This document shows, piece by piece, positions 3,716 through 26,653 of a stretch of DNA of 64,000 nucleotides (position 1 is the first letter of the stretch; the number at the start of each line of letters is the position of its first letter). A model generated the notes under the pieces. That model made no database searches. It was not told the DNA's origin and saw only the letters and a program-made list of their open reading frames with translations. The stretch lies in the NCBI GenBank assembly GCA_036339735.1, contig JAYZAL010000088.1:56286-120285 (forward strand). Direction: 5' to 3'. Both the position numbers and the translations under genes were made by a program. This DNA is from Candidatus Poribacteria bacterium (GTDB lineage Bacteria > Poribacteria > WGA-4E > UBA9662).

Positions 3716-6118
3716 CTATCCTAGAAGCGATTGTTCTAAGACCTGATCAATATGCTTAACAAAAACAAACTTAAGACCACGCTGTGCTTCTTTTGGAATC
3801 TCTGATAAATCTTTTCGATTCTTTTCTGGGGCAATAACTGTTTTGATACCAGCTTGTTTGGCCGCTAACACTTTCTCCTTGAGGCCACCAATCGGTAAGA
3901 CTCGGCCTCGTAACGAAATCTCTCCAGTCATCGCAACCTCATTGGAAACAACCTGATTGGTAGCTAGGGAAGCCAAAGCTGTTGCAATGGTTATACCCGC
4001 AGAAGGACCATCTTTAGGTGTAGCTCCAGCTGGTACATGCAAATGAAAATCGTTTTTTTTGAAAAAATCAGTGTCAATCAACAAGTCTTCAGCCTGTGAT
4101 TTGACATAACTCAGTGCGGCTTGCGCTGACTCTTGCATTACACTTCCAAGCTGACCCGTAACAGTCATTTTACCTTCTCCTTTCATTCGTGTACACTCTA
4201 CAAAGAGAACTTCACCTCCATATGGAGTTACAGATAGACCTGTAACTACACCAATATCACCTTCGCGTTCAGCTACTTCCGATTGAAATTTAATTGGACC
4301 TAAATACGTCTCGATTTTAGAAGCGGAAACATCAATCCGTCGTTTTCGTCCTTGAGCAAACTGGCGGGCTACTTTGCGACAGACAGTCCCCAATTCTCGC
4401 TCCAGGTTTCGTAACCCAGCTTCTCGAGTATAACTACTGATCACTTCTTCTATGGCAGGGTCTTCAAACTGAAGATTTTTGGCCGAAATCCCATTGGCGT
4501 CCAGTTGGCGCGGTACTAGATACTGTTTGGCTATCATCAGTTTTTCTTTTTGAGTATATCCAAGTAATTGCAGAATCTCCATCCGATCCTTTAAAGGCGG
4601 TGGAATAGTATCGAGCTGGTTAGCTGTAGCAATGAACATTACTTTAGAAAGATCAAATGGAACATCAAGGTAATTATCAGCAAAATTATGATTCTGTTCA
4701 GGATCCAATACTTCCAAGAGTGCAGATGCTGGATCTCCCCGAAAATCAGAACTCATTTTATCAAGTTCGTCCAGCATGAAAATCGGATTCTTTGATTCTG
4801 CTTGCCTTAGGCTTTTGATAATTCGACCCGGCATTGAACCAATATAAGTTCTTCGATGTCCACGGATTTCAGCTTCATCATGAACACCACCCAGAGATAT
4901 ACGAACGAACTCTCGTCCCATTGAACGAGCAATCGACCGACCTAAGGACGTCTTACCAACTCCTGGTGGGCCAACAAAACATAGAATTGGGCCTTTCATA
5001 TCTGACTTCAAAGACCGAACAGCTAGATATTCCAGAATTCGGTCTTTGACCTTAGTCAAATTGTAATGATCTTCGTCTAAAATCTGTTGAGCTCGGTCGA
5101 GGTCCAAGTTATCTTTTGTTTCGTGTTCCCAAGGTAAATTAACCATCCAGTCTAGATAGTTTCGACAAACAGTGGCTTCTGGAGAGAATGACTGCATCTG
5201 AGATAAACGTTTTAGCTCTCGCTCAGCTGATTTTAGCGCTTTTTCCGGCATTTCCATTTGCTGTAGTTTATCTCGATATTCTTCAATTTCAGCAGATAAA
5301 TCTTCGGTATCACCTAATTCTTTTTGAATGGCTCGTATTTGCTCTCGCAAGAAATATTCCTTCTGAGACTGATTGATTTCAGCTTCAGCGTCGGACTGGA
5401 TTTTACTCTCTAATTCAACTAAATTCAGTTCCTTGGTTAACATTTTAACCAAGTTTTCCAGTCTTTCCTCGACAGTAACATTTTCGAGCAGTTGCTGCTT
5501 ATCTTCTGTTTTTAAGCTTATGATAGAAGCAATGTAGTCAGCAAGCCGCCCAGGATGATCAATATTATCGGCAATAATGGCAAATTCTTCTTGATAACGA
5601 GAAGAAATAGTTACTATTTGGCTAAATAGATCATTTGCGCTTCTTACCAAGGCTTCAGACTCCATATCACCAAATTTTTCCGAAATCTCATCTTCTAACA
5701 GGGAGACTTCGGCCTTCATGAAGGGGGCTGTATGTAATACTTCATTAATTTCGACCCGAGCTTTGCCTTGAGCCAAAAAGAGAACACTATCGCCATCCTT
5801 TTTATAACGTACAATATGAACCAGTGTTCCGACAGGGCTTAGATCATCAGCAGTTAATTGTTTTGGGTCTTTTTCAATGCTTTGGCGAAACAAACAAAGA
5901 AACCTTTGTTCATTTACCATCGCATATTCAACTGCAGACGACACATTTTCACCTGACAACGCTACATGGTGAGGTGAAAATGGTGGGACTGGGGGCATGA
6001 AGGGGTAAACAACTAAATCTCCTAATACTGGAATAATAGGCAGCTCGTTGCTGATATCAAAGCGAGCTATACCTTCTGATTCTTCGTTTTCCAATGGATT
6101 TTGGTCACTCATCTTCAT
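3716..6118 (-). CDS. lon: ATP-dependent Lon protease (La)
   Basis: 800 aa. LON N-domain, Walker A GPPGVGKTS, and a C-terminal protease domain with PKDGPSAGIT (catalytic Ser) and the lysine region. Confidence 0.95.
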   Translation of the reverse strand: MKMSDQNPLENEESEGIARFDISNELPIIPVLGDLVVYPFMPPVPPFSPHHVALSGENVSSAVEYAMVNEQRFLCLFRQSIEKDPKQLTADDLSPVGTLVHIVRYKKDGDSVLFLAQGKARVEINEVLHTAPFMKAEVSLLEDEISEKFGDMESEALVRSANDLFSQIVTISSRYQEEFAIIADNIDHPGRLADYIASIISLKTEDKQQLLENVTVEERLENLVKMLTKELNLVELESKIQSDAEAEINQSQKEYFLREQIRAIQKELGDTEDLSAEIEEYRDKLQQMEMPEKALKSAERELKRLSQMQSFSPEATVCRNYLDWMVNLPWEHETKDNLDLDRAQQILDEDHYNLTKVKDRILEYLAVRSLKSDMKGPILCFVGPPGVGKTSLGRSIARSMGREFVRISLGGVHDEAEIRGHRRTYIGSMPGRIIKSLRQAESKNPIFMLDELDKMSSDFRGDPASALLEVLDPEQNHNFADNYLDVPFDLSKVMFIATANQLDTIPPPLKDRMEILQLLGYTQKEKLMIAKQYLVPRQLDANGISAKNLQFEDPAIEEVISSYTREAGLRNLERELGTVCRKVARQFAQGRKRRIDVSASKIETYLGPIKFQSEVAEREGDIGVVTGLSVTPYGGEVLFVECTRMKGEGKMTVTGQLGSVMQESAQAALSYVKSQAEDLLIDTDFFKKNDFHLHVPAGATPKDGPSAGITIATALASLATNQVVSNEVAMTGEISLRGRVLPIGGLKEKVLAAKQAGIKTVIAPEKNRKDLSEIPKEAQRGLKFVFVKHIDQVLEQSLLG

Positions 6119-6695
6119 CCTCCTGACGGTTCACTTGAATACCAATCGGTTGTCGTCCAGTTATCATATTTGCTTCAGCCTCGCTATCTAGATTTTGATT
6201 AGTCTTAACTTCAACTACAATCTCCTTAGATTTTCGTTCTTTTTTGGGTATTTTAATTTCCAGAAATCCATTGTCATAACTAGCGGTTGGTGTAACTTCT
6301 TCTACATGAACATTAGGTAAAACTACTCTCCGTTCAAAATGGCCATAGCTTAATCCAGCTTGGTGATAGTGTTGTTTCTTTAGCTCAGTTTTATCTTGAC
6401 GAAAACCACGTATGACCAAGTTATTTTCCTCTAGGCGAATTTTGACGTCATTCTCAGGATCAATTCCAGCGACTTCTAGCTTAACGATAAAACTATCTAC
6501 GGTCTCGTAAATATCCATTGGTGGTCGCCACAAGTCGGTCTCGACATTGGAAGAGGAGAAAGCATCAAATAGTCGCTCAGCCTCACCTTGCATTTCAATT
6601 TTCATTTCAAAAAATTGGTCAATCAGTTCTTTGGAAAACTTCATGCTAATTTTACTCCTGTCGCTGTTGATTTCTCGATTAATGTCTATTTTCAT
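6105..6695 (-). CDS. Hsp20/alpha-crystallin family small heat-shock protein
   Basis: Alpha-crystallin domain motifs (PMDIYET, VKLEVAGI, GFLEIKIPK) and an acidic C-terminal tail. Overlaps the lon start by 14 nt, suggesting translational coupling. The true start may be the internal Met at 6644 (MKFSKEL...). Confidence 0.8.
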   Translation of the reverse strand: MKIDINREINSDRSKISMKFSKELIDQFFEMKIEMQGEAERLFDAFSSSNVETDLWRPPMDIYETVDSFIVKLEVAGIDPENDVKIRLEENNLVIRGFRQDKTELKKQHYHQAGLSYGHFERRVVLPNVHVEEVTPTASYDNGFLEIKIPKKERKSKEIVVEVKTNQNLDSEAEANMITGRQPIGIQVNRQEDEDE

Positions 6696-6737: not shown

Positions 6738-8690
6738 TTAAGGCCAAAATTGATAGAGTGGGGTATTAGTAATGATACTAGCAATGCTCCAAATGCTCCC
6801 GAGGATGTAATCGCCTAGTGCTAAGCCTAGAAAAAACGGAATGGCACGGCGGTAAGACTGTAGACCGCCTTGTTTTAATATCACAGCTTTTAAAAACCAA
6901 GCAACAAATAAACAACACCATAAATTTGCCATCCCCCAGCTATTTGCCATAGCGTAACCAAGAGGGTGGAGAGGCCACCACAAAAACTTAGTTCGAATCA
7001 ACATCATCAAGGTCGTTATTATTACGCCTACTCCCATAAATGCTAAGCCAGGAATATCAACCTCGCGAGGAAATGTTAACCAGCCTTCTAGTTGTCGATA
7101 AACACCTCTTCCGAACCCGAGTGCCCAAGTTTCATAATAACCTGATTCTGCCCCATGGCGATAGTAGCTGTCAAGTAATAGCCAGAATACTACTATTGCA
7201 CCAACTAAAGTAGCCATCAAAATGGAAATCACTATTTGCTTTGAAGGAATCGACCGAGTTTGTGAAATCTTAAATGCTTCCAACATTTGCGGCATTGGAT
7301 GGGCTCGGTAGGCTCGATTAAAAAACATATATAAGGAAAATCCAATGAGGCTACCTGTTCCTATCCGCTGAGTACCGAAAGCCGTCACTAAAATACTATG
7401 TGGATCTATCCTGTGCAAGTCATGTACCAAGAAACCGAGTTCAGCTCTCACACGTGCTATCATAATAGCCAACAAAAAGTAAATCGTAAAAAATAGTAAA
7501 ATTACCCAAGGAGACATACCAATCTGGTAGGAAAAAACACTTAAAAAAGAACAGCCAAAGACAATACCTAGAAAGGCAAATCGGTAGTAAGTGAATTCTC
7601 TAACATCTTCGATTATAGGTTTTAAACCATACTTTATTCCTAAAAGAGACAATAGGTAACGCATGAGAGATTTAAAATGTCCTCTACCGGCCCATAAAGC
7701 AAAGCATAATAAGCCTATGTAAGCACCAAAAGCCTGCTCATTATCGTAAGGGAAACGAGGTATACCACGAAACCCAACTATTTTGCCTACCATCAATTCG
7801 ATCTTGAAAAGAGCATAAAAAAACCAACAAGAAAAAAGTAAATCAAGCGGTATTAAGAAGGCGATACCAATAGCAAATGGGTAAAAGGCAATCTTTACTC
7901 CACCCATCGCATTCCAAGGTCGGGCAGTGAAATAGTGTTGAATAGACTGACGTTTGACCGGTAAATATGGGACTTCAGGGTAAATCGAATTCATCAAATT
8001 CAGAATGCTAATTCCTGCTGCTAAACCGAAACCGAACCAAACTATCCTTCGATGAAAAAATCTGGAATCTGGATTTACCATTTCGAGCGGTAACTGAATG
8101 ATCGGATAAGTTAACCGCTCTCGTTCAGTCCATTGTAATCTCAACAAAATGTTTAGGCAGAGCATGACAATCATTAACACAAGGATAAAAGCAATCCACC
8201 AAACCGCGGGTTTCAGCCATGCATAAATATGATCTTGGGTATAGAGAGTAGAACCTCCTTCGTAATAATGGCGAAGTGCTTTTTCGTCACTGACAGTAAG
8301 CCATTCTGGCAGTTGACGAAGGAATATCTCTCGCCACTCATTTTCTGGTGTGGCGAAACGAAATGGGTGTCCCAAAATCGTGATTAAAATCTCCATCATA
8401 TCGTGGGAACAGAGAGATGAAACCACACATAGCATCACGTAAATAGTTAAAACTTCGGCTTGTGTTAGAACTAGTAAGGAGGAAAGTTGATTCAAAAACA
8501 GACCAATCAAAAGCAACCAGAAAATTATAAAAATAACATTTGATAATGGGTGAATAAGAGTTGGGTGAGTGTATCGAACGACCTCCAACTGTATCAGCCA
8601 AAATACATTAATTGGAATTAAACAGAGAACAATTAGAAAGGATTTGACTGTTAGACCATTCTCGGAAGGTGGATTCACTGATGAATCCAT
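6738..8690 (-). CDS. uncharacterised polytopic membrane protein, paralog 1 of 3 (about 14 predicted TM segments)
   Basis: 650 aa, highly hydrophobic. Shares the conserved motifs FATPENEW...LP.WLTV, RPWNAMG, HPMP.MLE.FKI, WWP.HP.GY and a C-terminal LGDY..GS.WS with the ORFs at 39367..41241 and 50934..52868. Confidence 0.5.
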   Translation of the reverse strand: MDSSVNPPSENGLTVKSFLIVLCLIPINVFWLIQLEVVRYTHPTLIHPLSNVIFIIFWLLLIGLFLNQLSSLLVLTQAEVLTIYVMLCVVSSLCSHDMMEILITILGHPFRFATPENEWREIFLRQLPEWLTVSDEKALRHYYEGGSTLYTQDHIYAWLKPAVWWIAFILVLMIVMLCLNILLRLQWTERERLTYPIIQLPLEMVNPDSRFFHRRIVWFGFGLAAGISILNLMNSIYPEVPYLPVKRQSIQHYFTARPWNAMGGVKIAFYPFAIGIAFLIPLDLLFSCWFFYALFKIELMVGKIVGFRGIPRFPYDNEQAFGAYIGLLCFALWAGRGHFKSLMRYLLSLLGIKYGLKPIIEDVREFTYYRFAFLGIVFGCSFLSVFSYQIGMSPWVILLFFTIYFLLAIMIARVRAELGFLVHDLHRIDPHSILVTAFGTQRIGTGSLIGFSLYMFFNRAYRAHPMPQMLEAFKISQTRSIPSKQIVISILMATLVGAIVVFWLLLDSYYRHGAESGYYETWALGFGRGVYRQLEGWLTFPREVDIPGLAFMGVGVIITTLMMLIRTKFLWWPLHPLGYAMANSWGMANLWCCLFVAWFLKAVILKQGGLQSYRRAIPFFLGLALGDYILGSIWSIASIITNTPLYQFWP

Positions 8691-9811
8691 CCCCGTCCAG
8701 ATTCGATCTGGACGTCTGTGTTTAAACCTTCACACAATTTCTGATATTTTTGGAGTGTAGATGTAGCCTGTTGTCCTTCTGAAATCTGAGGTTGGTATTT
8801 CACCTTTGGGTTTCCGACCCAGACAGGAACTAACTCTATATGCTTAAATTGTCGTTTTTGAAAAACAACTTTTGGTATAACAATTTGGCTGTGTTGCTTG
8901 TCGTATGTTTCGTATATGAGGTCAGCCAAGCTATAAATTATCGGCTTGCCTTCAAATATTTGGATTCCTTGTAGAGTATGTAGGCGTTGAGATAGAACCA
9001 AATCAGCACCTGCAGAGATTAGTGATTGCGCAAAAAACTGCTGCCTTTGGCTGACGATCTCACTTTTTGATTCTTTTCCCCAATGCATCATCACCACCAA
9101 CAAGTCAGCTTGATTCGCCATTTCTTCAGTTCGTTTTATCATGTGAGTATAGAGTGCGCGTGCCACCTTAATCTGTCCATCTTGGCTGAAAGCACCCGCG
9201 TGATAGTAAGTAACAAAGGCAACTTGGACTACTTGACCATTTTTTTGTAGGTTGAACCTGGCAGGTTGTTGTGCTGCATAATCGGAAAGCCCAACACCAA
9301 TTGTCTTAACTCCCATGCGAGTTAAGTGCTGGATAGTATCTTCAACGGCTACTGGACCAAAATCATGCAGGTTGGGGGTTGACAGCGATATCAGGTCCCA
9401 TCCAGCTTGGGCGATAGACGTTGATAGACCAGGTATCGCACGAAAAGACTGTTTTCCTTTCACTTTAGAAAGAGATTGATACTGTGGCTCACCATTTTCA
9501 GAGATACTGGTATTAAGTGTAGCTAACGCAATATCAGCTCCTTGAACCTCGCCCTTAATTAGTTTAAATAGAACATCTAAACCTTGTCGGCGTAGGATAG
9601 GAGTTAATCGACTACCAACTGTAATATCACCACCAACGAGTATTGAAACTTGATCGTTATTCGGATCAGCTTCAGCTAATCCAGTCAGATTGAACCCAAC
9701 AATAAGAAAAGTTATAGGAAGAATAAATCGACGGAGGCTGACCAATAATGAGGGGATTCGACGACATAGAGACATCGTCGCTTCCAGATTCTGGTGAAAA
9801 ATTCTTTTCAT
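8675..9811 (-). CDS. CapA/PGA_cap family metallophosphatase-like protein (poly-gamma-glutamate capsule synthesis-like)
   Basis: 378 aa. Signal peptide from the alternative start at 9775 (MSLCRRIPSLLVSL...), then VGGDITVG, NTSISENG and MMHWGKES (HWGxE) motifs typical of the CapA family. Confidence 0.65.
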   Translation of the reverse strand: MKRIFHQNLEATMSLCRRIPSLLVSLRRFILPITFLIVGFNLTGLAEADPNNDQVSILVGGDITVGSRLTPILRRQGLDVLFKLIKGEVQGADIALATLNTSISENGEPQYQSLSKVKGKQSFRAIPGLSTSIAQAGWDLISLSTPNLHDFGPVAVEDTIQHLTRMGVKTIGVGLSDYAAQQPARFNLQKNGQVVQVAFVTYYHAGAFSQDGQIKVARALYTHMIKRTEEMANQADLLVVMMHWGKESKSEIVSQRQQFFAQSLISAGADLVLSQRLHTLQGIQIFEGKPIIYSLADLIYETYDKQHSQIVIPKVVFQKRQFKHIELVPVWVGNPKVKYQPQISEGQQATSTLQKYQKLCEGLNTDVQIESGRGWIHQ

Positions 9812-9816: not shown

Positions 9817-10890
9817 CTAGGGATAGTTATATAGATTACCGGTTTCTGATGAAGATTCCGTAGAGCTAGGATCGGTCGTACTTGTCTGATCTAGCTCTGG
9901 TAACTGGTTAGCCGCAAATTCATCCAAAATGCAAGAGACAGTTTCTTCTGAGTACGCTTGTGAGTCGATGCTAGTTTGGTTTGCTTCCCAGGCCATCCGA
10001 GCAGCAGCTTCGAAATACTCAGCATGACGATAGCTATCGAGGATATCAACACCACGGGAGAAAGTACCGTGACCAGTCCAATACACGACATGACGAAATT
10101 GATCAGAATTCTTATCTGGAAGATCCTTCCCTTGGAATAGTCGTAGACTCTGAAACGACAATTCAGGTATACCTGGAGCTTTCTCCATCACCAATCCAAT
10201 TCCACCAACGCTATCGTATATTATCGGTGTCTCTGGTTCATAACCCTTCAAGAAATCATAAAACTTCTCAGGAACACCATGTTCTGATCGAGAAATCAAA
10301 TTTAGAAACTTAGGTTGTAGGTGTACCAAAGCATTAAATTCGTAATCCCCGAGCTGATCAAAAACTAACATATAGTGAAAAAACTCACTGGTGGGTTTAG
10401 GTAGTTTGTTCCCTGTTCTTTCGAGTTCTGAAATGGTTGGAGTACCATACCTCATCCGGTAGTGAACACCATCTGATTCCATTTCTAATATTGTTACGTT
10501 CAGGGAAGGATGTTCTAATCCAACCAAGTCTAATCTGCATCCAGACTTAGTCAACAAGACATGACGACCAACTAGGTTATTGACAGTAATCGCAGCAGGT
10601 AATCTACCACGTGGAGATTCTTCGATAGGTAGCAGGTAATCCGACCCGACTATTTCTGTCATTAGAGCCCCCATGTTACCAGCTGACCCCCATAAATATC
10701 CATTACGATGGGCATGGCTGCCAGCCCAGCCCATCTGCCCGATCAATGTTCCGATCTCGCTATCAACTCCAATGGGAGCCAAAGTCGGTTGGTATCCTCG
10801 CTCTAGCCACTTTCGATAGCGATAGCTTTGGGCAACAGGAGGGAACTTCTCTTGTGTCAAATAAGGATTGGTTAAACCCGCTGTACTCAT
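9817..10890 (-). CDS. class II aldolase/adducin-family domain protein (divergent; N- and C-terminal extensions)
   Basis: 357 aa. Its motifs align to FucA-type class II aldolases. The phosphate-binding segment WGSAGNMG matches GTAGNVS. SEFFHYMLVFDQLGDYEFNALVHLQP matches SEWRFHMAAYQSRPDANAVVHNHAV, with the second zinc His replaced by Gln. HVVYWTGHGTF matches LLQHHGLI. It ends in an S/T/E-rich low-complexity tail. Confidence 0.55.
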   Translation of the reverse strand: MSTAGLTNPYLTQEKFPPVAQSYRYRKWLERGYQPTLAPIGVDSEIGTLIGQMGWAGSHAHRNGYLWGSAGNMGALMTEIVGSDYLLPIEESPRGRLPAAITVNNLVGRHVLLTKSGCRLDLVGLEHPSLNVTILEMESDGVHYRMRYGTPTISELERTGNKLPKPTSEFFHYMLVFDQLGDYEFNALVHLQPKFLNLISRSEHGVPEKFYDFLKGYEPETPIIYDSVGGIGLVMEKAPGIPELSFQSLRLFQGKDLPDKNSDQFRHVVYWTGHGTFSRGVDILDSYRHAEYFEAAARMAWEANQTSIDSQAYSEETVSCILDEFAANQLPELDQTSTTDPSSTESSSETGNLYNYP

Positions 10891-10903
10891 CCTACTTTTT
10901 TCT

Positions 10904-11191
10904 CTACTTCTTATAAATGATTTGGCCCTCTATTTCGACCATATCCACGATTGCCATAACTACCGAATCTATCGGTTTCCCACTCGTTGAATCGGTATAT
11001 CGAGCGGAACTACCCGCTGCAGTCAAAACCATTTCGCCAATACCAGCTCCCACAGCATCCATTGCAACTGTGTATTGACGTACTAAATGACCGTCTATAT
11101 CAACTGACTGAACAATCATCAATTTGCTACCGATTAGTTTCTCATCTTTCCGAGTGGCAACTAGCGTGCCAACCACCTTTCCCAACGTCAT
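10904..11191 (-). CDS. EutN/CcmL/PduN-family bacterial microcompartment vertex (BMC-P pentamer) protein
   Basis: 95 aa. Aligns along its full length with E. coli EutN. KLMIVQSVDIDG...VAMDAVGAGIGEMVLTAAGSSAR...IDSVVMAIVDMVEIEGQIIYKK matches KLLMVEMIDPQG...VAIDNIGAGTGEWVLLVSGSSAR...VDLCVIGIVDEV..GGQVIF.K. Confidence 0.8.
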   Translation of the reverse strand: MTLGKVVGTLVATRKDEKLIGSKLMIVQSVDIDGHLVRQYTVAMDAVGAGIGEMVLTAAGSSARYTDSTSGKPIDSVVMAIVDMVEIEGQIIYKK

Positions 11192-11923
11192 CTAAATGCT
11201 CTTTTTTCATTGAATAGGCTGTTATGGTAAACTGAAATACAGATCAAAGTCAAGCTTACAATTTGGGTATTCTTCCTCTACATCTTGTTAATCAACATAA
11301 TTTGATCAGTGGATCATAAGAAATCAGAGAAGTAAGAAATTTCTCATCTTATGAAGTAAATATTCCACTGTACATCTCGGGTCAAAAACAATCGAGAATC
11401 GCTTCACACAACGTTACTTACAAAGTAAATGACGTAAAAATTTTATACTGAAGATATTCAGTTTTTCTTCGCTGACACACAGATTACCTGTATGATTGAT
11501 ACAATTTCGTTATGAATTTTTTATCTAACAAAACCAGTATAGCTCTAGCGTCTCTCGTATAATTTAATATCATTGCGTGAGTTTTCAAAAGAGATTAAAA
11601 ATCTCGGAGCCAATAGCTCAAATACATTTTGTCAGCTTTTATATTCTGAGAAGAATACGTTCAGGTGTGTAATAAGATAGACAAATTAGGTATTGACAAC
11701 TATGAATTACACGGTTCATCGTACTATGCGCAGTTGATCAAATTTTTAGACCTATTTTTCTTAAAGTAGACTGACTTATTGGAATGATTTGAAAACGAAC
11801 ACACCAAAAGAGAATAATAATACACAACTAGATAATACTATTTTATTCGTCCGTTGAACCTTGCTAATCCTGTTCGATTTCATATGATTCGATTATATAG
11901 AGTTGTCAAAAACTGATTCGGTT

Positions 11924-20254: not shown

Positions 20255-20812
20255 TTAGGTGTTTTCCCAAGGTGATGGCAAGGCCGCGGTTAACGTAAAA
20301 GTTGATTTTGCTAGTTCATCTAATCTTTCGTTGATCTTCTCTGACTGTACAAACATTTGTGGCGTCCGGTCATTACCAAAATCATCCCCAGTAGCGTAAA
20401 CAAATCGAGGATTAATTAAGCAACGAAAATCAAGCATCAGACTATTAGCAATACTCATTACCGACATATAACTAGAATGACCACCTGCAGCACAGGCGAA
20501 CCCAACAACTTTTTGACTCCACCTGCGGCCAGTTAATTCGATCATATTCTTGGCAGCAGAGTTAATGTCGTAGTTATAAATTGGTACAGTTAAGATAATT
20601 GCCCGAGCTTGTTCGATACTTTCTTGCAGAAACTGCACATGTGGATTTTCAGATGCACCGCTTGTGCCGCATAGTGGGGCTGGGTGTTTCCGTAGATCAA
20701 CCAAAGGTGACTCTGCTCCCAAATGGGATAGTTTTTCACTTAATTCTTTAGCTAGCACATAAGACCGACTTTGCGGATGAAGCGAACAACTAATAATAGT
20801 AATATTCATCAC
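20255..20812 (-). CDS. NAD(P)H-dependent FMN reductase (flavodoxin-like fold)
   Basis: 185 aa. N-terminal ITIISCSLHPQSRS flavodoxin-like phosphate-binding loop and PIYNYDI motif. Confidence 0.7.
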   Translation of the reverse strand: MMNITIISCSLHPQSRSYVLAKELSEKLSHLGAESPLVDLRKHPAPLCGTSGASENPHVQFLQESIEQARAIILTVPIYNYDINSAAKNMIELTGRRWSQKVVGFACAAGGHSSYMSVMSIANSLMLDFRCLINPRFVYATGDDFGNDRTPQMFVQSEKINERLDELAKSTFTLTAALPSPWENT

Positions 20813-20835
20813 TCTATGATACTCTTAATTTTTTT

Positions 20836-22671
20836 CTAATTGAATATTTGGTTAAGTTCTGGATGATTCTCCACTATTTGATCAACTCTTTGGTTAACTG
20901 ATTTTGATTCTATAAGTGGAGGTGCATTGTGGGGCTTGAAACGAGCATCAATCACTAATGGCCCTTTCGTTCCCCAGTGCTTATCTATTATGAATGAACT
21001 GGCGCCATAAATATCGGTAGCAGGATTAGAACGTGTGAATGTCAGCCACAGAAAATTTGACCAATCATCTACACAAAATTCTATATCATCTACAAGTACG
21101 ACTAATGGAAGACTAGACCATCGACGTGGTTCAATAGCAGAACATAGACTCTCAACTTGACCTTTTGCTATTTCATAATTTTCAGTAAATCTTGGTGCTC
21201 CCACAGCACATATGCCAGGTATAACGATCTTTGAATGATTAAAAGGTGAAGCTAACTGTTGTGGGATTTCAGTTGCTAAGTCCCTAATTTTTGAGCCGGC
21301 CGCAGCAATCACGACCTTAGAGCCGAGATTTAGCTCAGGGGTAGAGTAATCTAAGGTATCTATAGTCGTTTGGGTTTGAAAGTGAAGATCTCGACTCAAA
21401 TCAACTCGCTCTAATAAATGAACAAAAAAAGATTGGGTACATTGCGTTGACAGGTCAGAATTATCTTCTTGGGCTACGATAAACAAATACTTAGCTAGGC
21501 TACATTGATTGAATCCTAAAATTGCGTTAGCTTGGGTCAATAGTTCCATTGGTAATCGTTGTTGATAAGGCACATACCGCTCACTACCAATGGCGAGTAG
21601 CAATGGATGTACCCCTGCTTCATCAACAGCGTTTAGTTCTTTTACACCGGGTATTTCAACTGGTACCATAGGTTTGGTAATTTCGTGTATTAAATGACCA
21701 AAAGTGCTGTCTTCTTGTGGTGGACGACCAACGACGGTAAACGGCCAAATAGCATTTGGCCGATGGAAAACCTTTTCGACCTTCATATAAGGAAATTCGT
21801 GAGTTAGGCTATAATAACCCAGATGATCTCCAAAGGGGCCTTCTGGTTTGGTTTTTTGGGGATCAATCGTTCCAACCAGACAGAAGTCAGCGTCAGCTAA
21901 AATCGGGTACTCGTTCCAACGAGTATAACGTACATTACGATCAGCCATCATACCAGCAAAGACAATTTCAGATAAGCCTTCTGGTAAGGGCATTACGGCA
22001 GCCAAAGTGTGGGCAGGGGGGCCACCAACAAAAATACATACTTTCAAAGGTTGCTTTTTCTTGATGGCTTTGGCGTGATGTATACCAATACCTCTATGAA
22101 TCTGGTAGTGAAGCCCAACTTCTTCATTGTATCGGTAGTCATTACCCGACAGCTGTACCCGATACATACCTAGATTTGTATTAAATAAACCTCCCTTTTC
22201 TGGATCTTCGGTCAAAACCTGAGGCAAGGTGATGAAAGCACCGCCATCCATTGGCCAACTAATAATTTGTGGGAGTTGGGATACCGTTGTCTGGCTGGCC
22301 AATACTGGGGCTAAACGAGTCGGTATCGGTAAGGATCGTAAACCTGCGGTAGATAACGGAAACAGATTCTTCAGATCGGAAAAAACACTCGCCGGTCTGG
22401 CTTTGAATCGGACCGCAGTTTTTACTGGAGAAAGGCTCTTTCTAAAAATGTATCGGCTGCGTTCGATCGTACCAAACAAGTTGGATGTAGCACGGAACGG
22501 TGTACCAATCACTTTCTCAAAAAAGAGCGCAGGTCCACCAACTTTGTAAACTCGACGGGTGAGTTCAGCCATCTCTAGATTGGGGGAGATTGGTTCTGTT
22601 ACCCGAATCAATTGGTTTGTTTTATCTAAATCTCGGATGCAGTCTTCGGTACATCGATAGGCTTTGGTCAC
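20836..22671 (-). CDS. UbiD-family (prFMN-dependent) decarboxylase with C-terminal extension
   Basis: 611 aa. The N-terminal region matches 3-octaprenyl-4-hydroxybenzoate carboxy-lyase-family proteins (GGPALFFEKV, WPMDGGAFITLP, FGDHLGYYS). Confidence 0.75.
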   Translation of the reverse strand: MTKAYRCTEDCIRDLDKTNQLIRVTEPISPNLEMAELTRRVYKVGGPALFFEKVIGTPFRATSNLFGTIERSRYIFRKSLSPVKTAVRFKARPASVFSDLKNLFPLSTAGLRSLPIPTRLAPVLASQTTVSQLPQIISWPMDGGAFITLPQVLTEDPEKGGLFNTNLGMYRVQLSGNDYRYNEEVGLHYQIHRGIGIHHAKAIKKKQPLKVCIFVGGPPAHTLAAVMPLPEGLSEIVFAGMMADRNVRYTRWNEYPILADADFCLVGTIDPQKTKPEGPFGDHLGYYSLTHEFPYMKVEKVFHRPNAIWPFTVVGRPPQEDSTFGHLIHEITKPMVPVEIPGVKELNAVDEAGVHPLLLAIGSERYVPYQQRLPMELLTQANAILGFNQCSLAKYLFIVAQEDNSDLSTQCTQSFFVHLLERVDLSRDLHFQTQTTIDTLDYSTPELNLGSKVVIAAAGSKIRDLATEIPQQLASPFNHSKIVIPGICAVGAPRFTENYEIAKGQVESLCSAIEPRRWSSLPLVVLVDDIEFCVDDWSNFLWLTFTRSNPATDIYGASSFIIDKHWGTKGPLVIDARFKPHNAPPLIESKSVNQRVDQIVENHPELNQIFN

Positions 22672-22695
22672 TCTTCTGGGTCGTTCAACTTGTTG

Positions 22696-22974
22696 CTAAC
22701 AACCCCCTCCCATAGCCGGCAAAAAATGTACTTCTGAGTTAGGTCCGATAGTTGATCGCATACCTCTGTCGATCAACACACCATCAACATAGACACCAAT
22801 ATAAGGGCTAATACGTTCAATACCATCATCGTGGTGGCATAGCCGATCTTTCACACCAGGGAACTCCGCTTCCATATTGTCCAATAATTCTCGTATCGTT
22901 GTTCCCGTAATTTCAACTTGACTTTTTTCGTTAGTCAAATCACGCATCAAGGAAGGAATAGAAACAATGGCCAA
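22696..22974 (-). CDS. MoaD/ThiS-family ubiquitin-like sulfur-carrier protein
   Basis: 92 aa beta-grasp-like sequence ending ...FLPAMGGGC. The glycine-rich C-terminus is typical of the family, with one extra Cys after the Gly run. Confidence 0.55.
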   Translation of the reverse strand: MAIVSIPSLMRDLTNEKSQVEITGTTIRELLDNMEAEFPGVKDRLCHHDDGIERISPYIGVYVDGVLIDRGMRSTIGPNSEVHFLPAMGGGC

Positions 22975-23058
22975 AACTTAACCCATAGTTGAAGTGTTCG
23001 GATAATTTTCCCAATCTATAAACCAAAGGTAATCAATAATCGCAATAGAGAGGGGTCT

Positions 23059-25299
23059 CTAAATTTTATCTAGAGCTTTAAGAACTACACCCGGGTTCAT
23101 CGGCAAATCAGTCATTCGAACACCAATGGCGCGCGAAACTGCATTGGCAATAGCTGCTAAGGGGGGTACCAATGGTACTTCACCAACGCCACGCACTCCA
23201 AATGGATGACCAGGGTTCGGTACTTCGACCAAAACAGTATCAATCATCGGAGTATCGTAGCAAGTCGGCATCCGATAGTCAAGAAAGCTAGAGTTTTTCA
23301 TTTCTCCATTTTCACCAAAAACGTACTCTTCACTCAAAGCCCAACCAATTCCTTGTACCACTCCACCCTGCATCTGTCCTTCGACGTAACTAGGGTGGAT
23401 AGCAGTCCCAACGTCTTGCACGGCCGTATAGCGTAAAATTTCAACTTTTCCTGTTTCTTCATCAACTTCTACGTCCACAATATGTGTACCGAAACCACCA
23501 CCAGCTCCACCAGTAGATTCAGTAACAGAACCAACAACCGGAGCACATATTTTTGCCGCTTCCTTGAAATCACAGCTCTTATTACTGCTCGAGAAGACCC
23601 CATCTGCGAATTCTACTTGATCCGCTTCCCAATGATCTGCCATTTGATCTATCATCTGGGCAATAACATCTTCTGCTGCTCGGATTGCGACTAAACCTGT
23701 AGCATGAGTAGTTCGACTGCCTCCAGTCACACCAGTCTCTCCGATAGTATTAGTATCAACTACTGCTGGTCGCACATCTTCCGACGCAATTCCTAAAACC
23801 TCCGCGGCTTGCATCGCAATTGAGGCACGAGAACCACCGATATCCGTCGACCCCTCGAGTAGCATAATGGTCCCATCTCCATTAACGGTTAGATTAACGC
23901 TTGACCGACCTGCCCCATTTCCCCAATACCCAGACGCAATACCGCGACCTTGTCGCTTAAGAATATCAATCTCACTTTGGTAGTGTTTGTGTTTTTGTGC
24001 TGCTGAAACAGTTTCTAGGTAACCTATTTTTCCGTGAATGGGTCCAGTCGGTCGACGGTCACCTTCTTTAGCTCCATTGAATAGACGAAATTCTAGAGGG
24101 TCAATCTCTAATTTTTGACAAATTTCGTCTATTACACACTCTGCAGCAAATGATCCATTTGGGGCACCAGGAGCTCGATAAGCCGATGAACGTGGTTTGT
24201 TAACGACAACATCAAATCCATCTATCCTTAAGTTGGGTATCTTATAAGCTGTAAACATACAGTTAGCACCAGCTCCAACAGCAGATCCTGGGTAGGCACC
24301 AGCTTCGTAGAATAGGTCAGCCTCAGCTGCGGTAATACGTCCATCTTTTGTTGCTCCGATCTTGACTCGAATCAAAGTCGCAGGAGCTGGCCCAGTCCCT
24401 TCAAATACTTCTTCCCGACTCATGGTGATTTTGACCGGAAATCCAGTTCTAATAGAGATCAGCGCTGCTAGTGGGCTAACATAAACACGTATTTTACCAC
24501 CGAATCCTCCACCAATCTCTAGTGGAACTACCTTGATTTTACTAGCAGGATGTCGCAGAATTTCAGCCACTTGATCACGGACAGCAAATGCCCCCTGCGT
24601 ACTAGTCCAAACTGTCAATTCTCCATCAGGATTATATTTTGCCGTTGCCGTATGGGGTTCAATATATCCTTGATGTACGGTTTGAGTTGTAAATGTTCTT
24701 TCAACAATTACCCCATTAGTCTCGGCCTGTGAGAAACCTAGACTCAAGTCGCCATTTTCGTGTCGAAAATGAGAGGCAATGTTGGTAGGTGTTTCTGTTT
24801 TCTCACCAAGTGTGTTTGTTGTCAAAGACTGGTGAAGTACTACTGCATCTGGGGCAATTGCTTCTTCTACGGAAGTTACCGATGCAAGTATTTCATATTC
24901 AACGTCAATTAGATCAACCGCTTCTTGGGCTGTGTGAATATCAGTAGCTGCAACGACTGCAATCGGCTGTCCCTTATAAAAAACTTTTTCACTAGCCAAC
25001 ACATTGTCGCTCAGGAAACGCATATTTTCTGGTATCTCACCAAATTCTGCGATTCTTTCTTCCACAATAGGTAAGTCACTACCAGTGATAATATCCTTAA
25101 CTCCTGGATATTCCAGAGCCTGACTAACATCTAGAGAAATTATCTTGGCATGTGCGTGAGGGCTACGTAGGACTTTTCCATATAACATATCCGGAAAATT
25201 CAGATCGGCTCCATACTTTGCCCTACCAGTTACTTTGTCTACCCCATCATGACGAATAGGTCGACTACCAATAACTTTGTAACCATTTCCATTTTTCAT
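23059..25299 (-). CDS. xanthine dehydrogenase/CO dehydrogenase-family molybdopterin-binding large subunit (CoxL-like)
   Basis: 746 aa. Ald_Xan_dh_C/C2 hallmarks (GGGFGGK, the SAYRAPGAP active-site loop in the AYRGAGR position of form II CoxL, and the GHPFGVRGVGE C-terminus). Confidence 0.9.
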   Translation of the reverse strand: MKNGNGYKVIGSRPIRHDGVDKVTGRAKYGADLNFPDMLYGKVLRSPHAHAKIISLDVSQALEYPGVKDIITGSDLPIVEERIAEFGEIPENMRFLSDNVLASEKVFYKGQPIAVVAATDIHTAQEAVDLIDVEYEILASVTSVEEAIAPDAVVLHQSLTTNTLGEKTETPTNIASHFRHENGDLSLGFSQAETNGVIVERTFTTQTVHQGYIEPHTATAKYNPDGELTVWTSTQGAFAVRDQVAEILRHPASKIKVVPLEIGGGFGGKIRVYVSPLAALISIRTGFPVKITMSREEVFEGTGPAPATLIRVKIGATKDGRITAAEADLFYEAGAYPGSAVGAGANCMFTAYKIPNLRIDGFDVVVNKPRSSAYRAPGAPNGSFAAECVIDEICQKLEIDPLEFRLFNGAKEGDRRPTGPIHGKIGYLETVSAAQKHKHYQSEIDILKRQGRGIASGYWGNGAGRSSVNLTVNGDGTIMLLEGSTDIGGSRASIAMQAAEVLGIASEDVRPAVVDTNTIGETGVTGGSRTTHATGLVAIRAAEDVIAQMIDQMADHWEADQVEFADGVFSSSNKSCDFKEAAKICAPVVGSVTESTGGAGGGFGTHIVDVEVDEETGKVEILRYTAVQDVGTAIHPSYVEGQMQGGVVQGIGWALSEEYVFGENGEMKNSSFLDYRMPTCYDTPMIDTVLVEVPNPGHPFGVRGVGEVPLVPPLAAIANAVSRAIGVRMTDLPMNPGVVLKALDKI

Positions 25300-25781
25300 T
25301 ATAGGTCGTCCTCTCCGTTATCTGCAGCATCCAAGACAGCACGCACAATCTTGTCATATCCGGTGCAACGACAGAGGTTTCCAGCCAACCAGAACCGAAC
25401 TTCCTTCTCAGTTGGATTGGGGTTACTCTCAAGTAAAGCTTTTGCATTCATAATGAACCCTGGTGTACAAATACCGCATTGCAAGGCGGCATGCTCCAAG
25501 AATTTTTGCTGCAGTGGGTGTAACCCTTCAGGTGAAGCAACACCTTCGATAGTTTCGATTTTATTTCCCTCGGCCTCTACACCTAACATACAACATGAGT
25601 TAACAGGTCGACCTTCGACCATTATGGTGCACGCACCACAGTTCCCATTGTTACATCCTTCTTTAGCACCTGTTAAATCAAGATCGTCTCGAAGAACTTC
25701 GAGCATACTCTGTCGGGGCTCGCATAAAAACTCAACACTGTCACCGTTAATTTGCGTCTGTACATGAACTTTTCTTGACAT
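25299..25781 (-). CDS. (2Fe-2S)-binding small subunit of molybdenum hydroxylase (CoxS-like)
   Basis: 160 aa. Two [2Fe-2S] cysteine clusters: CNNGNCGAC (plant-ferredoxin type) and CGICTPG...CRC. Confidence 0.9.
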   Translation of the reverse strand: MSRKVHVQTQINGDSVEFLCEPRQSMLEVLRDDLDLTGAKEGCNNGNCGACTIMVEGRPVNSCCMLGVEAEGNKIETIEGVASPEGLHPLQQKFLEHAALQCGICTPGFIMNAKALLESNPNPTEKEVRFWLAGNLCRCTGYDKIVRAVLDAADNGEDDL

Positions 25782-26653
25782 TAAGCAGTCTCCTTAATTC
25801 GGCTGATGGCACCATTCAACGCCCGCTTAGTCAATACACCAACCAAATGTTTCCTCTGTTCTGCACTACCTCTCATATCGCTAATTGGACGAGCGACGTC
25901 TTGTGCTGCAGAACATGCTGTTTGAATCGATTCCTCGCTAACCGGTTGTCCAGCTAATATGCTACCAGCTTCCTCCGCAAAGAGTGGCGTCGCAGCAACT
26001 GCTCCGAGAGCAATACGTGCTGAAACGAAGGTTCTGTGATCGGAGGTCAACTCTACCGAGGCTCCTACACCAACTACAGCAATATCCATTTCATTACGAG
26101 GAATAAAGCGAAGGTAGAAACTACTAGAGTTGTCAGCTGGTTTAGGTAAAACTAACTTGACCAATAGTTCATTACTAGATAGTGCCGTCTGTCCAGGCCC
26201 AGTACAGAATTCTTCCACTGCGACTTTTCGATCTCCGTTTGGTCCTTGAATAACACAGCTCGCTCCAAGTGCAATCAGTGCTGGGATAGAATCTGCAGCC
26301 GGCGACGCATTACACAAGTTGCCTCCAATGCTGGCCCGACTTTGAATTTGCACTCCACCGATGATACTCGTGGAATCAACTAGAGCTGGAAATAATCTTT
26401 GCACATCCTCATTGCCATAAACTTGATAGCAAGGAACGGAAGCCCCGATCTGCAAATCCCCATTGTAAGAAATCTCGTTGAATTCGGGAATTTTTTTGAT
26501 ATCGACTAATAAGTCAACTTGGCGACGGTTTTCTCGAACCTGAACAATCAGGTCTGTTCCACCACTCAAAATTCGAGCTTGATCTCCGTGCTTATCTAAG
26601 AGGCCTATGGCTTCCCCCAAACTTTCGGCTGCCACATATTCGAATGCTTGCAA
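25781..26653 (-). CDS. FAD-binding medium subunit of molybdenum hydroxylase (CoxM-like)
   Basis: 290 aa. ILSGGTDL FAD-binding motif and GGNLCNASP motif of FAD_binding_5/CO_deh_flav_C. Start and stop codons abut the neighbours, giving M-S-L order. Confidence 0.85.
   Translation of the reverse strand: MQAFEYVAAESLGEAIGLLDKHGDQARILSGGTDLIVQVRENRRQVDLLVDIKKIPEFNEISYNGDLQIGASVPCYQVYGNEDVQRLFPALVDSTSIIGGVQIQSRASIGGNLCNASPAADSIPALIALGASCVIQGPNGDRKVAVEEFCTGPGQTALSSNELLVKLVLPKPADNSSSFYLRFIPRNEMDIAVVGVGASVELTSDHRTFVSARIALGAVAATPLFAEEAGSILAGQPVSEESIQTACSAAQDVARPISDMRGSAEQRKHLVGVLTKRALNGAISRIKETA

What the first reader, a model, noticed from the sequence alone, without database searches (positions are those of the whole stretch)
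9817..11191. Orphan microcompartment vertex gene (EutN/CcmL) paired with a class II aldolase-like gene, with no shell-hexamer genes in 64 kb
The 95-aa ORF at 10904..11191 aligns end to end with EutN/CcmL/PduN pentamer proteins. The gene 13 nt downstream encodes a class II aldolase/adducin-like domain, the signature enzyme type of the Planctomycetes-Verrucomicrobia (PVM) fucose/rhamnose microcompartment. No BMC-H (Pfam00936-type), aldehyde dehydrogenase, PduL or acetate kinase gene occurs anywhere in the window. Instead the pair heads a tightly packed co-directional string (gaps of -16 to 42 nt) made up of a CapA-like protein, a 650-aa polytopic membrane protein, Hsp20 and Lon. This is either a satellite BMC-P/aldolase module far from the main shell locus or a repurposed pentamer.
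Basis: partly seen in the sequence, partly recalled or inferred. Interest (0 to 1): 0.75.

Follow-up and report, generated by a model that had tools for sequence, protein, structure and literature searches.

The report
Scattered microcompartment vertex gene, seawater Poribacteria
This is a genuine microcompartment vertex-protein gene from a free-living marine Poribacterium, a phylum already known to scatter its shell genes around the genome; what is new is that in seawater lineages only it sits directly in front of a very divergent, Poribacteria-only aldolase-like gene.

Summary
Window 10904-11191(-) encodes a full-length EutN/CcmL (BMC-P) protein. Thirteen nt downstream lies a 357-aa protein with a weak class II aldolase match. 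No BMC-H, AldDH, PduL or acetate kinase gene occurs in the 64 kb, nor in about 8.5 kb beyond the near edge.

The window comes from a seawater Candidatus Poribacteria. Published work already describes this phylum's shell genes as scattered: the "satellite-like" loci of Kamke 2014 and Axen 2014, and the FRAG2 type of Sutter 2021. An isolated vertex gene is therefore expected here.

The aldolase-like protein is not the PVM signature enzyme:
- It is 24% identical to a real PVM-type aldolase.
- One zinc histidine is replaced by an invariant Gln.
- It has no amphipathic encapsulation peptide.
- It belongs to a tight family found only in Poribacteria.

Across 80 poribacterial species, this gene's usual neighbours are CapA-like, DUF6785 and Lon genes. 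EutN abuts it only in the 7 seawater loci, and there the pair survives where both flanks differ.

Most likely this is a satellite vertex gene co-transcribed with a phylum-conserved gene string. A functional BMC-P/aldolase module, or a shell-less pentamer, remains possible. I could not test whether seawater Poribacteria carry BMC-H genes.

The parts
11224..11253 (-). Sigma-70-like promoter candidate (TTGACT, 18 nt, TACCAT), about 30-60 nt upstream of the EutN start codon
   Evidence: Consensus scan hit. The scan found no more promoter-like sites than shuffled sequence gives (26 found, 22.1 expected), so the hit alone means little. The -35 and -10 boxes are conserved in the window, L019, L020 and L021, although the upstream gene differs in L021 (alignment A3). 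They are not conserved in L022, L027 or L041. Function is inferred, not shown.
10904..11191 (-). BMC-P / EutN-CcmL vertex (pentamer) protein, 95 aa
   Evidence: PF03319 full length, 95.6 bits. Best solved relative is the H. ochraceum shell pentamer 5v74, 91.6 bits over residues 1-95. Many of the top hits are 95 aa at 65-75% identity, and every named one in that band is Poribacteria. GC is native.
9817..10890 (-). Poribacteria-specific class II aldolase-fold protein (RhaD-like), 357 aa. It has an N-terminal extension, an H190-x-Q192 ... H274 metal motif, and a disordered C-terminal linker.
   Evidence: PF00596 33.2 bits, partial. Profile search against PDB gives 1pvt and RhaD at E about 1e-4; Foldseek gives 1pvt and RhaD at E about 1e-7. 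NCBIfam RhaD 44 bits against a cutoff of 170. In alignment A1, E169, H190, Q192 and H274 are invariant. The family is one 50%-identity cluster among 1.84 billion representatives.
9820..9837 (-). Conserved C-terminal tail NLYNYP-COOH of the aldolase-like protein
   Evidence: The last three residues (NYP) are invariant in the 26 aligned homologues, and the preceding positions are conservative (N or G, L/V, Y/F). The tail follows a linker that varies in length and sequence (A1). L022 ends ...NLFNY. It is modelled as coil with pLDDT below 50. Its role is unknown.
8675..9811 (-). CapA/PGA_cap-family metallophosphatase-fold protein with an N-terminal signal anchor, 378 aa
   Evidence: PF09587 139.7 bits. 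Hydrophobic segment at residues 22-40 followed by AEA|D. Found downstream of the aldolase-like gene in most poribacterial species.
6738..8690 (-). DUF6785+DUF6784 polytopic membrane protein, 650 aa
   Evidence: PF20581 527 bits and PF20580 126.8 bits. About 12 hydrophobic segments. Syntenic with the aldolase-like gene in about 49 of 80 species loci.
6105..6695 (-). Small heat-shock protein (Hsp20)
   Evidence: PF00011 69.9 bits. Present in the string in the seawater clade and a few sponge lineages only.
3716..6118 (-). LonA protease (endopeptidase La), last gene of the tightly packed string
   Evidence: TIGR00763 959 bits, above the 608 cutoff. Overlaps hsp20 by 14 nt and is followed by a 379-nt gap. 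Syntenic in about 49 of 80 species loci.

Best explanation
The window comes from a free-living (seawater) Candidatus Poribacteria.

**The vertex gene.** The 95-aa gene encodes a canonical BMC-P vertex pentamer. It belongs to the phylum's fragmented, FRAG2-type microcompartment system, whose shell genes normally sit at several unlinked sites. The lack of hexamer genes in 64 kb is therefore the usual state for this phylum, not an anomaly. The gene is the orthologue of the solitary "group C" EutN of sponge Poribacteria.

**Its position in seawater lineages.** Here the gene lies 9-13 nt (30 nt in one locus) upstream of a Poribacteria-only aldolase-fold gene. That gene heads a phylum-conserved string: aldolase-like, exported CapA-like phosphoesterase, DUF6785 membrane protein, Hsp20 in some lineages, then LonA. 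A promoter-like element precedes EutN, and no terminator-like site lies between EutN and the aldolase-like gene, so the pentamer gene is probably co-transcribed with at least the aldolase-like gene.

**Proposed mechanism.**
- The pentamer caps shells built from BMC-H proteins encoded elsewhere. This is inferred from sponge Poribacteria and the FRAG2 definition, and was not shown for this genome.
- The aldolase-like protein is a strongly diverged RhaD-type protein with an altered metal site.
- Its link to the compartment is unproven. It may reflect no more than shared expression.
For: **Identity of the pentamer.**

**Taxonomy.** All 80 best genome loci are Poribacteria. The closest is seawater MAG SAT10, at 92-100% aa identity.

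**Literature on scattered shell genes.**
- Kamke 2014 (PMC3909097) found BMC-H and EutN in different regions, with 3 EutN against 1-2 BMC-H per genome.
- Axen 2014 (PMC4207490) calls every poribacterial locus satellite-like.
- The Sutter 2021 (PMC8217296) supplement defines FRAG2 as 33 loci, 21 of them Poribacteria, with a BMC-P triplet plus two BMC-H. It lists a 95-aa poribacterial BMC-P as "FRAG2 (sat)".

**Orthologues in sponge symbionts.** At 69-71% identity they are solitary. They sit next to a 5-FTHF cyclo-ligase, with or without a two-component system, exactly as in Kamke's group C.

**Synteny over 80 species loci.**
- EutN is adjacent in 7 loci from 6 MAGs, all seawater.
- About 49 show Ald followed by CapA, DUF6785 and/or Lon.
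- 25 show Ald alone.

**Transcription unit.** Tight spacing, a conserved promoter-like element and native base composition.

**Expression.** Orthologues of both genes are transcribed in a sponge symbiont: Ald at FPKM 382 and the 288-bp EutN at FPKM 300 (supplement of Jahn 2016, PMC5087111).
Against: - I could not show that seawater Poribacteria possess BMC-H genes or the other two BMC-P paralogues.
- The EutN-Ald pair is kept in all 7 seawater loci, down to 64% Ald and 69% EutN identity. It persists even in L021, where both flanks differ and the CapA-to-Lon string is missing. That argues for selection on the pair itself, which is more than passive co-location.
- Co-transcription is inferred from spacing only.
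Confidence: 0.6

Rival explanations
1. Functional BMC-P/aldolase module. The aldolase-like protein is the aldehyde-generating signature enzyme, or a cargo, of the poribacterial FRAG2 microcompartment. This would parallel the class II aldolases of PVM, ACI and HO-type BMCs. The protein would be recruited by its conserved C-terminal NLYNYP tail on a flexible linker, a non-canonical targeting peptide. Seawater lineages would simply have kept the two genes together.
For: - The pair is conserved with 9-13 nt spacing (30 nt in L021) in all 7 seawater loci, and in L021 it survives rearrangement of both flanks.
- There is precedent: HO type I satellite loci hold two BMC-P plus an aldolase. ACI and PVM loci use PF00596 aldolases. 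FRAG types have no known signature enzyme.
- The closest solved relatives are sugar-phosphate aldolases, 1pvt and RhaD.
- A variable linker followed by a conserved terminal peptide is the general layout of targeting peptides.
- The family is phylum-wide, as FRAG2 is.
Against: - The two genes are not adjacent in 73 of 80 species loci.
- The tail is 6 residues and predicted as coil, not the roughly 18-residue amphipathic helix seen in the real PVM-like aldolase P0223.
- One of three zinc ligands is an invariant Gln.
- No AldDH, PduL or sugar kinase/isomerase gene lies nearby.
- The conserved neighbours are an exported CapA-like protein, a membrane protein and Lon.
- Sutter et al. report that EP HMMs find nothing in FRAG genomes.
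Confidence: 0.22
2. Repurposed, shell-less pentamer. Streamlined seawater Poribacteria have lost BMC-H genes. The EutN homologue then acts on its own, for example as a small oligomeric partner of the aldolase-like protein or of the downstream envelope and proteostasis genes.
For: - No BMC-H gene occurs in 64 kb plus 8.5 kb.
- The gene heads an operon-like string that has no BMC enzymes.
Against: - The protein aligns over its full length, at 51% identity, with a pentamer seen in a solved shell (5v74) and shows no insertions.
- It is the orthologue of the sponge-lineage EutN, whose genomes do carry BMC-H and PduL.
- The catalogue lists a 95-aa poribacterial BMC-P as FRAG2 satellite. Its locus tag (CMK10) looks to me like the Tara-MAG series, but I did not check that.
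- Seventy kilobases is a small fraction of the genome.
Confidence: 0.12
3. Decaying or meaningless remnant. The EutN ORF is a relic with no function, and its adjacency to the aldolase-like gene is chance.
For: - Its neighbourhood differs between lineages.
- Kamke 2014 raised possible lack of function for poribacterial BMC genes.
Against: - Its length is exactly 95 aa, with 65-75% identity across the phylum and no frameshifts.
- The identical protein occurs in 533 sample blocks of ocean metagenomes.
- The orthologue is transcribed in situ.
Confidence: 0.03

Closest known systems
FRAG2 fragmented BMC type (Sutter et al. 2021, Nat Commun 12:3809), equal to the 'satellite-like' poribacterial BMC loci (Axen et al. 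2014) and to Kamke et al. 2014 BMC group C
   Same: - Same phylum.
- A 95-aa BMC-P encoded alone, far from BMC-H genes.
- The closest sponge-lineage orthologues lie in exactly the group C context: EutN next to a 5-FTHF cyclo-ligase, with or without a two-component system.
   Different: - Here the BMC-P is fused onto the head of the aldolase-like/CapA/DUF6785/Hsp20/Lon string instead of the group C neighbours. This is seen only in seawater genomes.
- I could not verify that this genome holds the rest of the FRAG2 inventory, namely two more BMC-P and two BMC-H.
HO type I satellite locus (two BMC-P plus a class II aldolase) and ACI/PVM/PVM-like BMC loci with PF00596 aldolases
   Same: - A BMC-P gene sits immediately next to a PF00596-fold gene.
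- The pentamer's best solved relative is the H. ochraceum BMC-P.
   Different: - There is one BMC-P, not two or three.
- The aldolase-like protein is 24% identical to a PVM-like locus aldolase.
- It has H-x-Q instead of H-x-H.
- It has no amphipathic EP.
- It is about 100 aa longer.
- No AldDH, BMC-H or BMC-T gene lies in the locus. Compare the canonical locus L098.
E. coli rhamnulose-1-phosphate aldolase RhaD and Thermotoga TM1072 sugar-phosphate aldolase (PDB 1gt7, 1pvt)
   Same: - Same fold (Foldseek probability 1.0).
- The catalytic Glu in the P-T-S-E motif, the G-N phosphate motif, and the first and third metal histidines are kept.
   Different: - Profile E-value is only about 1e-4.
- NCBIfam score is 44 against a cutoff of 170.
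- The second metal His is replaced by an invariant Gln192.
- There is a 45-aa N-terminal extension.
- There is a disordered C-terminal linker ending in NLYNYP.

Membership tests
BMC-P (EutN/CcmL/PduN pentamer, PF03319) | Single PF03319 domain covering the whole protein of about 90-100 aa, above the curated cutoff | tested here: met
   95.6 bits against a cutoff of 25, profile positions 1-83 of 83.
BMC-P (EutN/CcmL/PduN pentamer, PF03319) | Close, gap-free similarity to a protein shown structurally to occupy shell vertices | tested here: met
   5v74 (H. ochraceum shell BMC-P), 91.6 bits, residues 1-95 against 1-95. Alignment A2.
BMC-P (EutN/CcmL/PduN pentamer, PF03319) | Forms pentamers that cap a shell made of BMC-H | not testable with these tools
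   This needs biochemistry or a multimer prediction, and only monomer prediction was available.
FRAG2 fragmented BMC (Sutter 2021) | Shell genes dispersed, with BMC-P remote from BMC-H and from known BMC enzymes | tested here: met
   No PF00936, Aldedh or PduL in 64 kb or in 8.5 kb beyond the window.
FRAG2 fragmented BMC (Sutter 2021) | Host phylum is mainly Candidatus Poribacteria | tested here: met
   The closest genomes are all Poribacteria MAGs. FRAG2 comprises 21 Poribacteria loci out of 33.
FRAG2 fragmented BMC (Sutter 2021) | Genome also holds the grey and orange BMC-P paralogues and two standard BMC-H | not testable with these tools
The BMC-H protein search returned no Poribacteria in its top 120. 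The trait is known for sponge SAGs only.
PVM / PVM-like BMC locus | One locus holding BMC-H, BMC-T, a BMC-P triplet, AldDH and a class II aldolase | tested here: not met
   Only one BMC-P is present. L098 shows a real example for contrast.
PVM / PVM-like BMC locus | Aldolase carries a terminal amphipathic encapsulation helix | tested here: not met
   P0223 ends ...EALVDRIVERVRARLES. The window protein ends ...SSETGNLYNYP, predicted as coil.
Class II aldolase (PF00596; FucA/RhaD/AraD type) | PF00596 match and fold | tested here: met
   33.2 bits against a cutoff of 22.2, partial. Foldseek gives 1pvt and RhaD at E about 1e-7. The model is only moderate: pLDDT 60.8, with residues 193-275 poor.
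Class II aldolase (PF00596; FucA/RhaD/AraD type) | Three-histidine metal site (H-x-H ... H) | tested here: not met
   H190-L-Q192 ... H274. Q192 is invariant in 26 homologues. It aligns to the second His of 1pvt (VHTHP) and of P0223 (VHAHP).
Class II aldolase (PF00596; FucA/RhaD/AraD type) | Catalytic Glu and phosphate-binding motifs | tested here: met
   P-T-S-E169 aligns to the P-T-S-E of RhaD and 1pvt. G71-N72 is conserved.
Rhamnulose-1-phosphate aldolase (NCBIfam NF002963 equivalog) | Score above the curated equivalog cutoff | tested here: not met
   44.2 bits against a cutoff of 170.

The most novel reading that the evidence does not exclude
The Poribacteria-only aldolase-fold protein is the missing signature enzyme or cargo of the functionally unassigned FRAG2 microcompartment. 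It would be recruited through its conserved C-terminal NLYNYP tail, a new, non-helical targeting peptide, possibly by docking on the adjacent BMC-P pentamer. Seawater lineages would preserve the ancestral or selected gene pairing. A variant of this reading: in streamlined seawater Poribacteria the pentamer works with this protein and no shell at all.
Probability: 0.15. Interest if true: 0.65.

Novelty: new member of a known kind. Interest (0 to 1): 0.33.

Why it matters
FRAG-type microcompartments have no assigned substrate or signature enzyme, according to Sutter 2021.

A vertex gene is kept glued to one enzyme-like gene across a whole seawater clade. That pairing offers a rare, cheap experimental handle on what the poribacterial compartment does, by testing the aldolase-like protein's activity, metal content and shell binding.

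If the link is only co-location, the finding is ordinary. It would be one more satellite shell gene in a phylum already known for them. A previously undescribed, phylum-conserved gene string (aldolase-like, CapA-like, DUF6785, Lon) would remain as a by-product.

Tried and rejected
1. **Heat-shock or RNA control.** I looked for CIRCE elements and for known RNA elements in the 732-nt AT-rich leader and across the whole window. There were no CIRCE matches and no Rfam hits.
2. **Finding poribacterial BMC-H genes.**
   - The second EutN paralogue I followed (P0181) led to a textbook PVM-like locus.
   - That contig is 71% GC, and its BMC-H relatives are named Gemmatimonadota, so it is not Poribacteria.
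   - It served only as a positive control for what a real locus, aldolase and EP look like.
   - The final protein search with its BMC-H returned no Poribacteria.
3. **Podell 2019 pangenome paper.** The library does not hold it.
4. **CapA-like protein modifying the aldolase tail.**
   - NCBIfam showed a partial hit to MslH, a C-terminal Trp epimerase of the same fold (44 bits against a cutoff of 700).
   - I rejected the idea. The hit is generic family similarity, and the CapA-like protein has a signal anchor, so it is probably extracytoplasmic.
5. **Tail as a Lon degron.** From memory, the tail resembles the C-terminus of SulA. I did not test this, so it stays speculation.
6. **Tail shared with DUF6785.** That protein ends ...LYQFWP. 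The paralogues end ...MYTMFP and ...MYRVFPN, so this is a feature of the DUF6784 domain and probably coincidence.
7. **AlphaFold model.** Built from a 26-sequence, low-diversity alignment, it is only moderate (pLDDT 60.8; residues 193-275 below 50). I based the active-site statements on sequence alignments instead.
8. **Horizontal transfer of EutN.** Rejected, because its GC and GC3 are native.
Full report
**Observation**

The ORF at window 10904-11191 on the minus strand (95 aa) matches PF03319 EutN_CcmL over the whole profile (95.6 bits, E 2.5e-27). Its best solved relative is the vertex pentamer of the Haliangium ochraceum shell, 5v74 (91.6 bits, residues 1-95 against 1-95).

Thirteen nucleotides downstream, 9817-10890(-) encodes 357 aa with a weak, partial PF00596 Aldolase_II match (33.2 bits).

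The same strand continues with four more genes:
- a PGA_cap/CapA-like protein with a signal anchor;
- a 650-aa DUF6785+DUF6784 polytopic membrane protein;
- Hsp20;
- a canonical LonA.

The gaps along the string are 13, 5, -16, 42 and -14 nt. A 379-nt gap follows lon.

A six-frame search with four BMC-H proteins found nothing. Pfam scans of 50 ORFs, the larger non-nested ones, found no PF00936, aldehyde dehydrogenase, PduL or acetate kinase. Near-identical ocean metagenome contigs show no shell gene in the 8.5 kb beyond the window's near edge.

**Where it comes from**

The identical EutN protein occurs in hundreds of marine metagenome sample blocks, including Tara Oceans, always in the same gene string. 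Homologues of the aldolase-like protein that carry names are all Candidatus Poribacteria.

A scan of one genome per GTDB species found 149 loci. The best 80 are all Poribacteria, and the closest is the seawater MAG SAT10 at 92-100% amino-acid identity. Base composition of the two genes is native.

**What is already known**

- Kamke et al. 2014 (PMC3909097) reported that poribacterial genomes carry 3 EutN-type and only 1-2 BMC-H genes. These lie in different regions, none next to classical BMC enzymes. Their "group C" is a lone EutN next to a 5-formyl-THF cyclo-ligase, sometimes split by a two-component system.
- Axen et al. 2014 (PMC4207490) classed every poribacterial locus as satellite-like.
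- Jahn et al. 2016 (PMC5087111) showed that the BMC-H/PduL region is expressed.
- Sutter et al. 2021 (PMC8217296) defined the fragmented type FRAG2. It has 33 loci, 21 of them from Poribacteria, with a BMC-P triplet plus two BMC-H. Their BMC-P tree lists a 95-aa poribacterial protein as "FRAG2 (sat)".
- The same paper describes HO-type satellite loci made of BMC-P genes plus a class II aldolase. It also notes that FRAG types lack a known signature enzyme.

An orphan vertex gene in a poribacterial genome is therefore the expected condition.

**Orthology and context of the pentamer gene**

Many of the top hits are 95 aa at 65-75% identity, and every named one in that band is Poribacteria.

I inspected two such orthologues in large sponge-metagenome contigs. 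One is followed by a histidine kinase, a sigma-54 response regulator and then the 5-FTHF cyclo-ligase (L016). The other is followed directly by the cyclo-ligase (L017). This is Kamke's group C arrangement. Neither has the aldolase-like gene within 10 kb.

**The aldolase-like gene**

Alignment of 26 homologues (A1) shows a very tightly conserved family with 68% mean column identity.

An exhaustive HMM search of 1.84 billion 50%-identity representatives returned one full-length cluster plus fragments. Scores then drop from 654 bits to about 60 bits, where ordinary aldolases of 230-300 aa begin. The family is therefore an isolated, Poribacteria-restricted offshoot.

Its nearest solved relatives are Thermotoga TM1072 (1pvt) and E. 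coli RhaD (profile E about 1e-4; Foldseek E about 1e-7 on a moderate model).

Features kept:
- the catalytic Glu (P-T-S-E169);
- the G-N phosphate motif;
- the first and third metal histidines (H190, H274).

Features changed:
- The second metal histidine is an invariant Gln192: V-H-L-Q-P against V-H-T-H-P in 1pvt and V-H-A-H-P in a BMC aldolase.
- There is a 45-residue N-terminal extension.
- There is a C-terminal disordered linker of variable length and sequence. It ends in a conserved tail, NLYNYP-COOH, whose last three residues are invariant in the 26 sequences. Some seawater species end NLFNY.

For contrast I recovered a genuine PVM-like locus with two BMC-H, one BMC-T, three BMC-P, AldDH and a 251-aa aldolase. 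It comes from an unrelated 71%-GC bacterium. Its aldolase has H-x-H and ends in a textbook amphipathic encapsulation helix. It is only 24% identical to the window protein.

The RhaD equivalog model scores 44 bits against a cutoff of 170. The neighbour is therefore not the PVM signature aldolase.

**Synteny across the phylum**

I ran tblastn with the window's proteins against the 80 species loci.

| Arrangement | Loci |
|---|---|
| Ald followed by CapA-like, DUF6785, LonA (no Hsp20) | 37 |
| Same with Hsp20 | 7 |
| Ald then Hsp20-Lon, or CapA-Hsp20-Lon | 5 |
| Ald then CapA-like and DUF6785, Lon not detected (the three loci end soon after) | 3 |
| Ald with CapA-like only, or DUF6785 only | 2 |
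| Ald alone | 25 |
| EutN-Ald pair without the string (L021) | 1 |

- In sponge lineages an acidic low-complexity ORF usually lies between Ald and CapA.
- In the "Ald alone" group, at least six of the loci have a sigma-54-type regulator homologue 1-5 kb downstream.
- EutN lies immediately upstream of Ald in exactly 7 loci from 6 MAGs: SAT10 (two contigs), SRP092796_co5_610, Arabian9_MAG_50, SP142, OC6_3000m_MAG_233 and NP41.
- All 7 are seawater genomes. They span Ald identities of 64-93% and EutN identities of 69-100%. The intergenic gap is 9-13 nt, or 30 nt in one.
- In Arabian9_MAG_50 (L021) the pair persists although the upstream gene is different and the CapA-to-Lon string is absent.

A sigma-70-like element (TTGACT, 18 nt, TACCAT; window 11253-11224) is conserved upstream of EutN in four of these loci, including L021.

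In a sponge symbiont transcriptome, the orthologues of Ald, DUF6785 and the 288-bp EutN are all transcribed at 0.4-0.65 times the housekeeping level (supplement of PMC5087111).

**Interpretation**

Shown:
- the pentamer gene is real, conserved and native;
- it is orthologous to a known scattered poribacterial shell gene;
- the aldolase-like gene belongs to a distinct poribacterial family whose phylum-wide partners are envelope and proteostasis genes, not shell genes;
- the EutN-Ald juxtaposition is specific to, and stable within, the seawater clade.

Inferred:
- the pentamer caps shells made from BMC-H genes located elsewhere, by analogy with sponge Poribacteria and the FRAG2 definition;
- EutN is co-transcribed with the string, judged from spacing and the promoter-like site.

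I commit to [quoted passage not shown] at about 0.6.

The main rival is that the aldolase-like protein is a real BMC partner or signature enzyme recruited by its unusual tail (about 0.2). The stability of the pair in L021 and the HO, ACI and PVM precedents support it. The altered metal site, the lack of an EP-like helix and the absence of adjacency in 73 of 80 species weaken it.

A shell-less, repurposed pentamer (about 0.1) cannot be excluded, because I could not survey the whole genome for BMC-H.

**Novelty and score**

The "orphan vertex gene" is explained by published knowledge. The seawater-specific pairing and the phylum-conserved aldolase-like/CapA/DUF6785/Lon string appear undescribed in the papers I could read. 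They are modest additions.

The finding is a new member of a known kind, and its interest is moderate to low. Its main value is as a lead to the unknown function of FRAG2 compartments.

Noticed in passing
window 6738-8690(-), 39367-41241(+), 50934-52868(-): The window holds three paralogues of the uncharacterised DUF6785+DUF6784 polytopic membrane protein. The two outside the string sit next to GFO/IDH/MocA-type sugar oxidoreductases (37154-38314, 53395-54555), which hints at a carbohydrate-transport role.
   Followed up: partly
window 9820-9837(-); alignment A1: The aldolase-like family has a conserved C-terminal tail, NLYNYP (last three residues invariant in 26 sequences), after a hypervariable acidic and polar linker of roughly 25-70 residues. 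No function is known. From my own knowledge, class II aldolase FucA uses a mobile Tyr-bearing C-terminal tail in catalysis, so a lid role is an alternative to a targeting role.
   Followed up: partly
L075:11048-11797, L011:11177-11800 (sponge-lineage loci): Sponge-associated Poribacteria carry an extra acidic, low-complexity ORF of 207-249 aa between the aldolase-like and CapA-like genes. It has no confident family match (faint PHA-granule/phasin-like hits only) and is absent from the window.
   Followed up: partly
L025, L028, L031, L033, L037, L038 (1-5 kb downstream of the aldolase-like gene): In at least six of the 25 loci that lack the CapA-to-Lon string, a sigma-54-type response regulator homologue lies 1-5 kb downstream of the aldolase-like gene, and histidine-kinase-like hits occur in some of them. 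The regulator is 37-42% identical to the one beside the group C EutN in L016.
   Followed up: no
L099:14096-19349 (about 3-8.5 kb beyond window position 1): Just outside the window lies a cluster on one strand: an ABC ATPase, a PqqD-like protein, three unannotated proteins (356, 246 and 663 aa) and a 56-aa ORF. The layout is reminiscent of a RiPP biosynthetic cluster.
   Followed up: no
L017:11285-14258 and L099:10873-14050: A TPR protein and FG-GAP/UnbV_ASPIC gene pair lies near EutN both in a sponge symbiont (within 1-4 kb, opposite strand) and in the seawater lineage (about 10 kb downstream). The UnbV_ASPIC proteins are 46.5% identical. This could be remnant synteny, or simply a multi-copy family.
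   Followed up: partly
window 11192-11923: A 732-nt, 31.6% GC intergenic region lies upstream of EutN. It has no Rfam match and no long ORF. Only the proximal 60 nt or so (the promoter-like element) is conserved among seawater lineages.
   Followed up: partly
L018 and L020 (MAG SAT10, contigs PAYP01000030 and PAYP01000105): The same MAG carries the whole EutN-to-Lon locus on two contigs that differ slightly (Ald 92% and 93% identical to the window). This suggests mixed strains in the bin.
   Followed up: no
window 32152-34240(-): A glutamine-synthetase-family gene overlaps a peptidase C26 / class I glutamine amidotransferase gene by 95 nt. From my own knowledge this pairing resembles PuuA/PuuD gamma-glutamyl polyamine catabolism.
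   Followed up: no
window 20255-26653(-): A run of redox genes: a three-subunit molybdopterin dehydrogenase of xanthine/CO dehydrogenase type (23059-26653), a ThiS-like small protein (22696-22974), a UbiD-family decarboxylase (20836-22671) and an FMN reductase-like flavoprotein (20255-20812).
   Followed up: no
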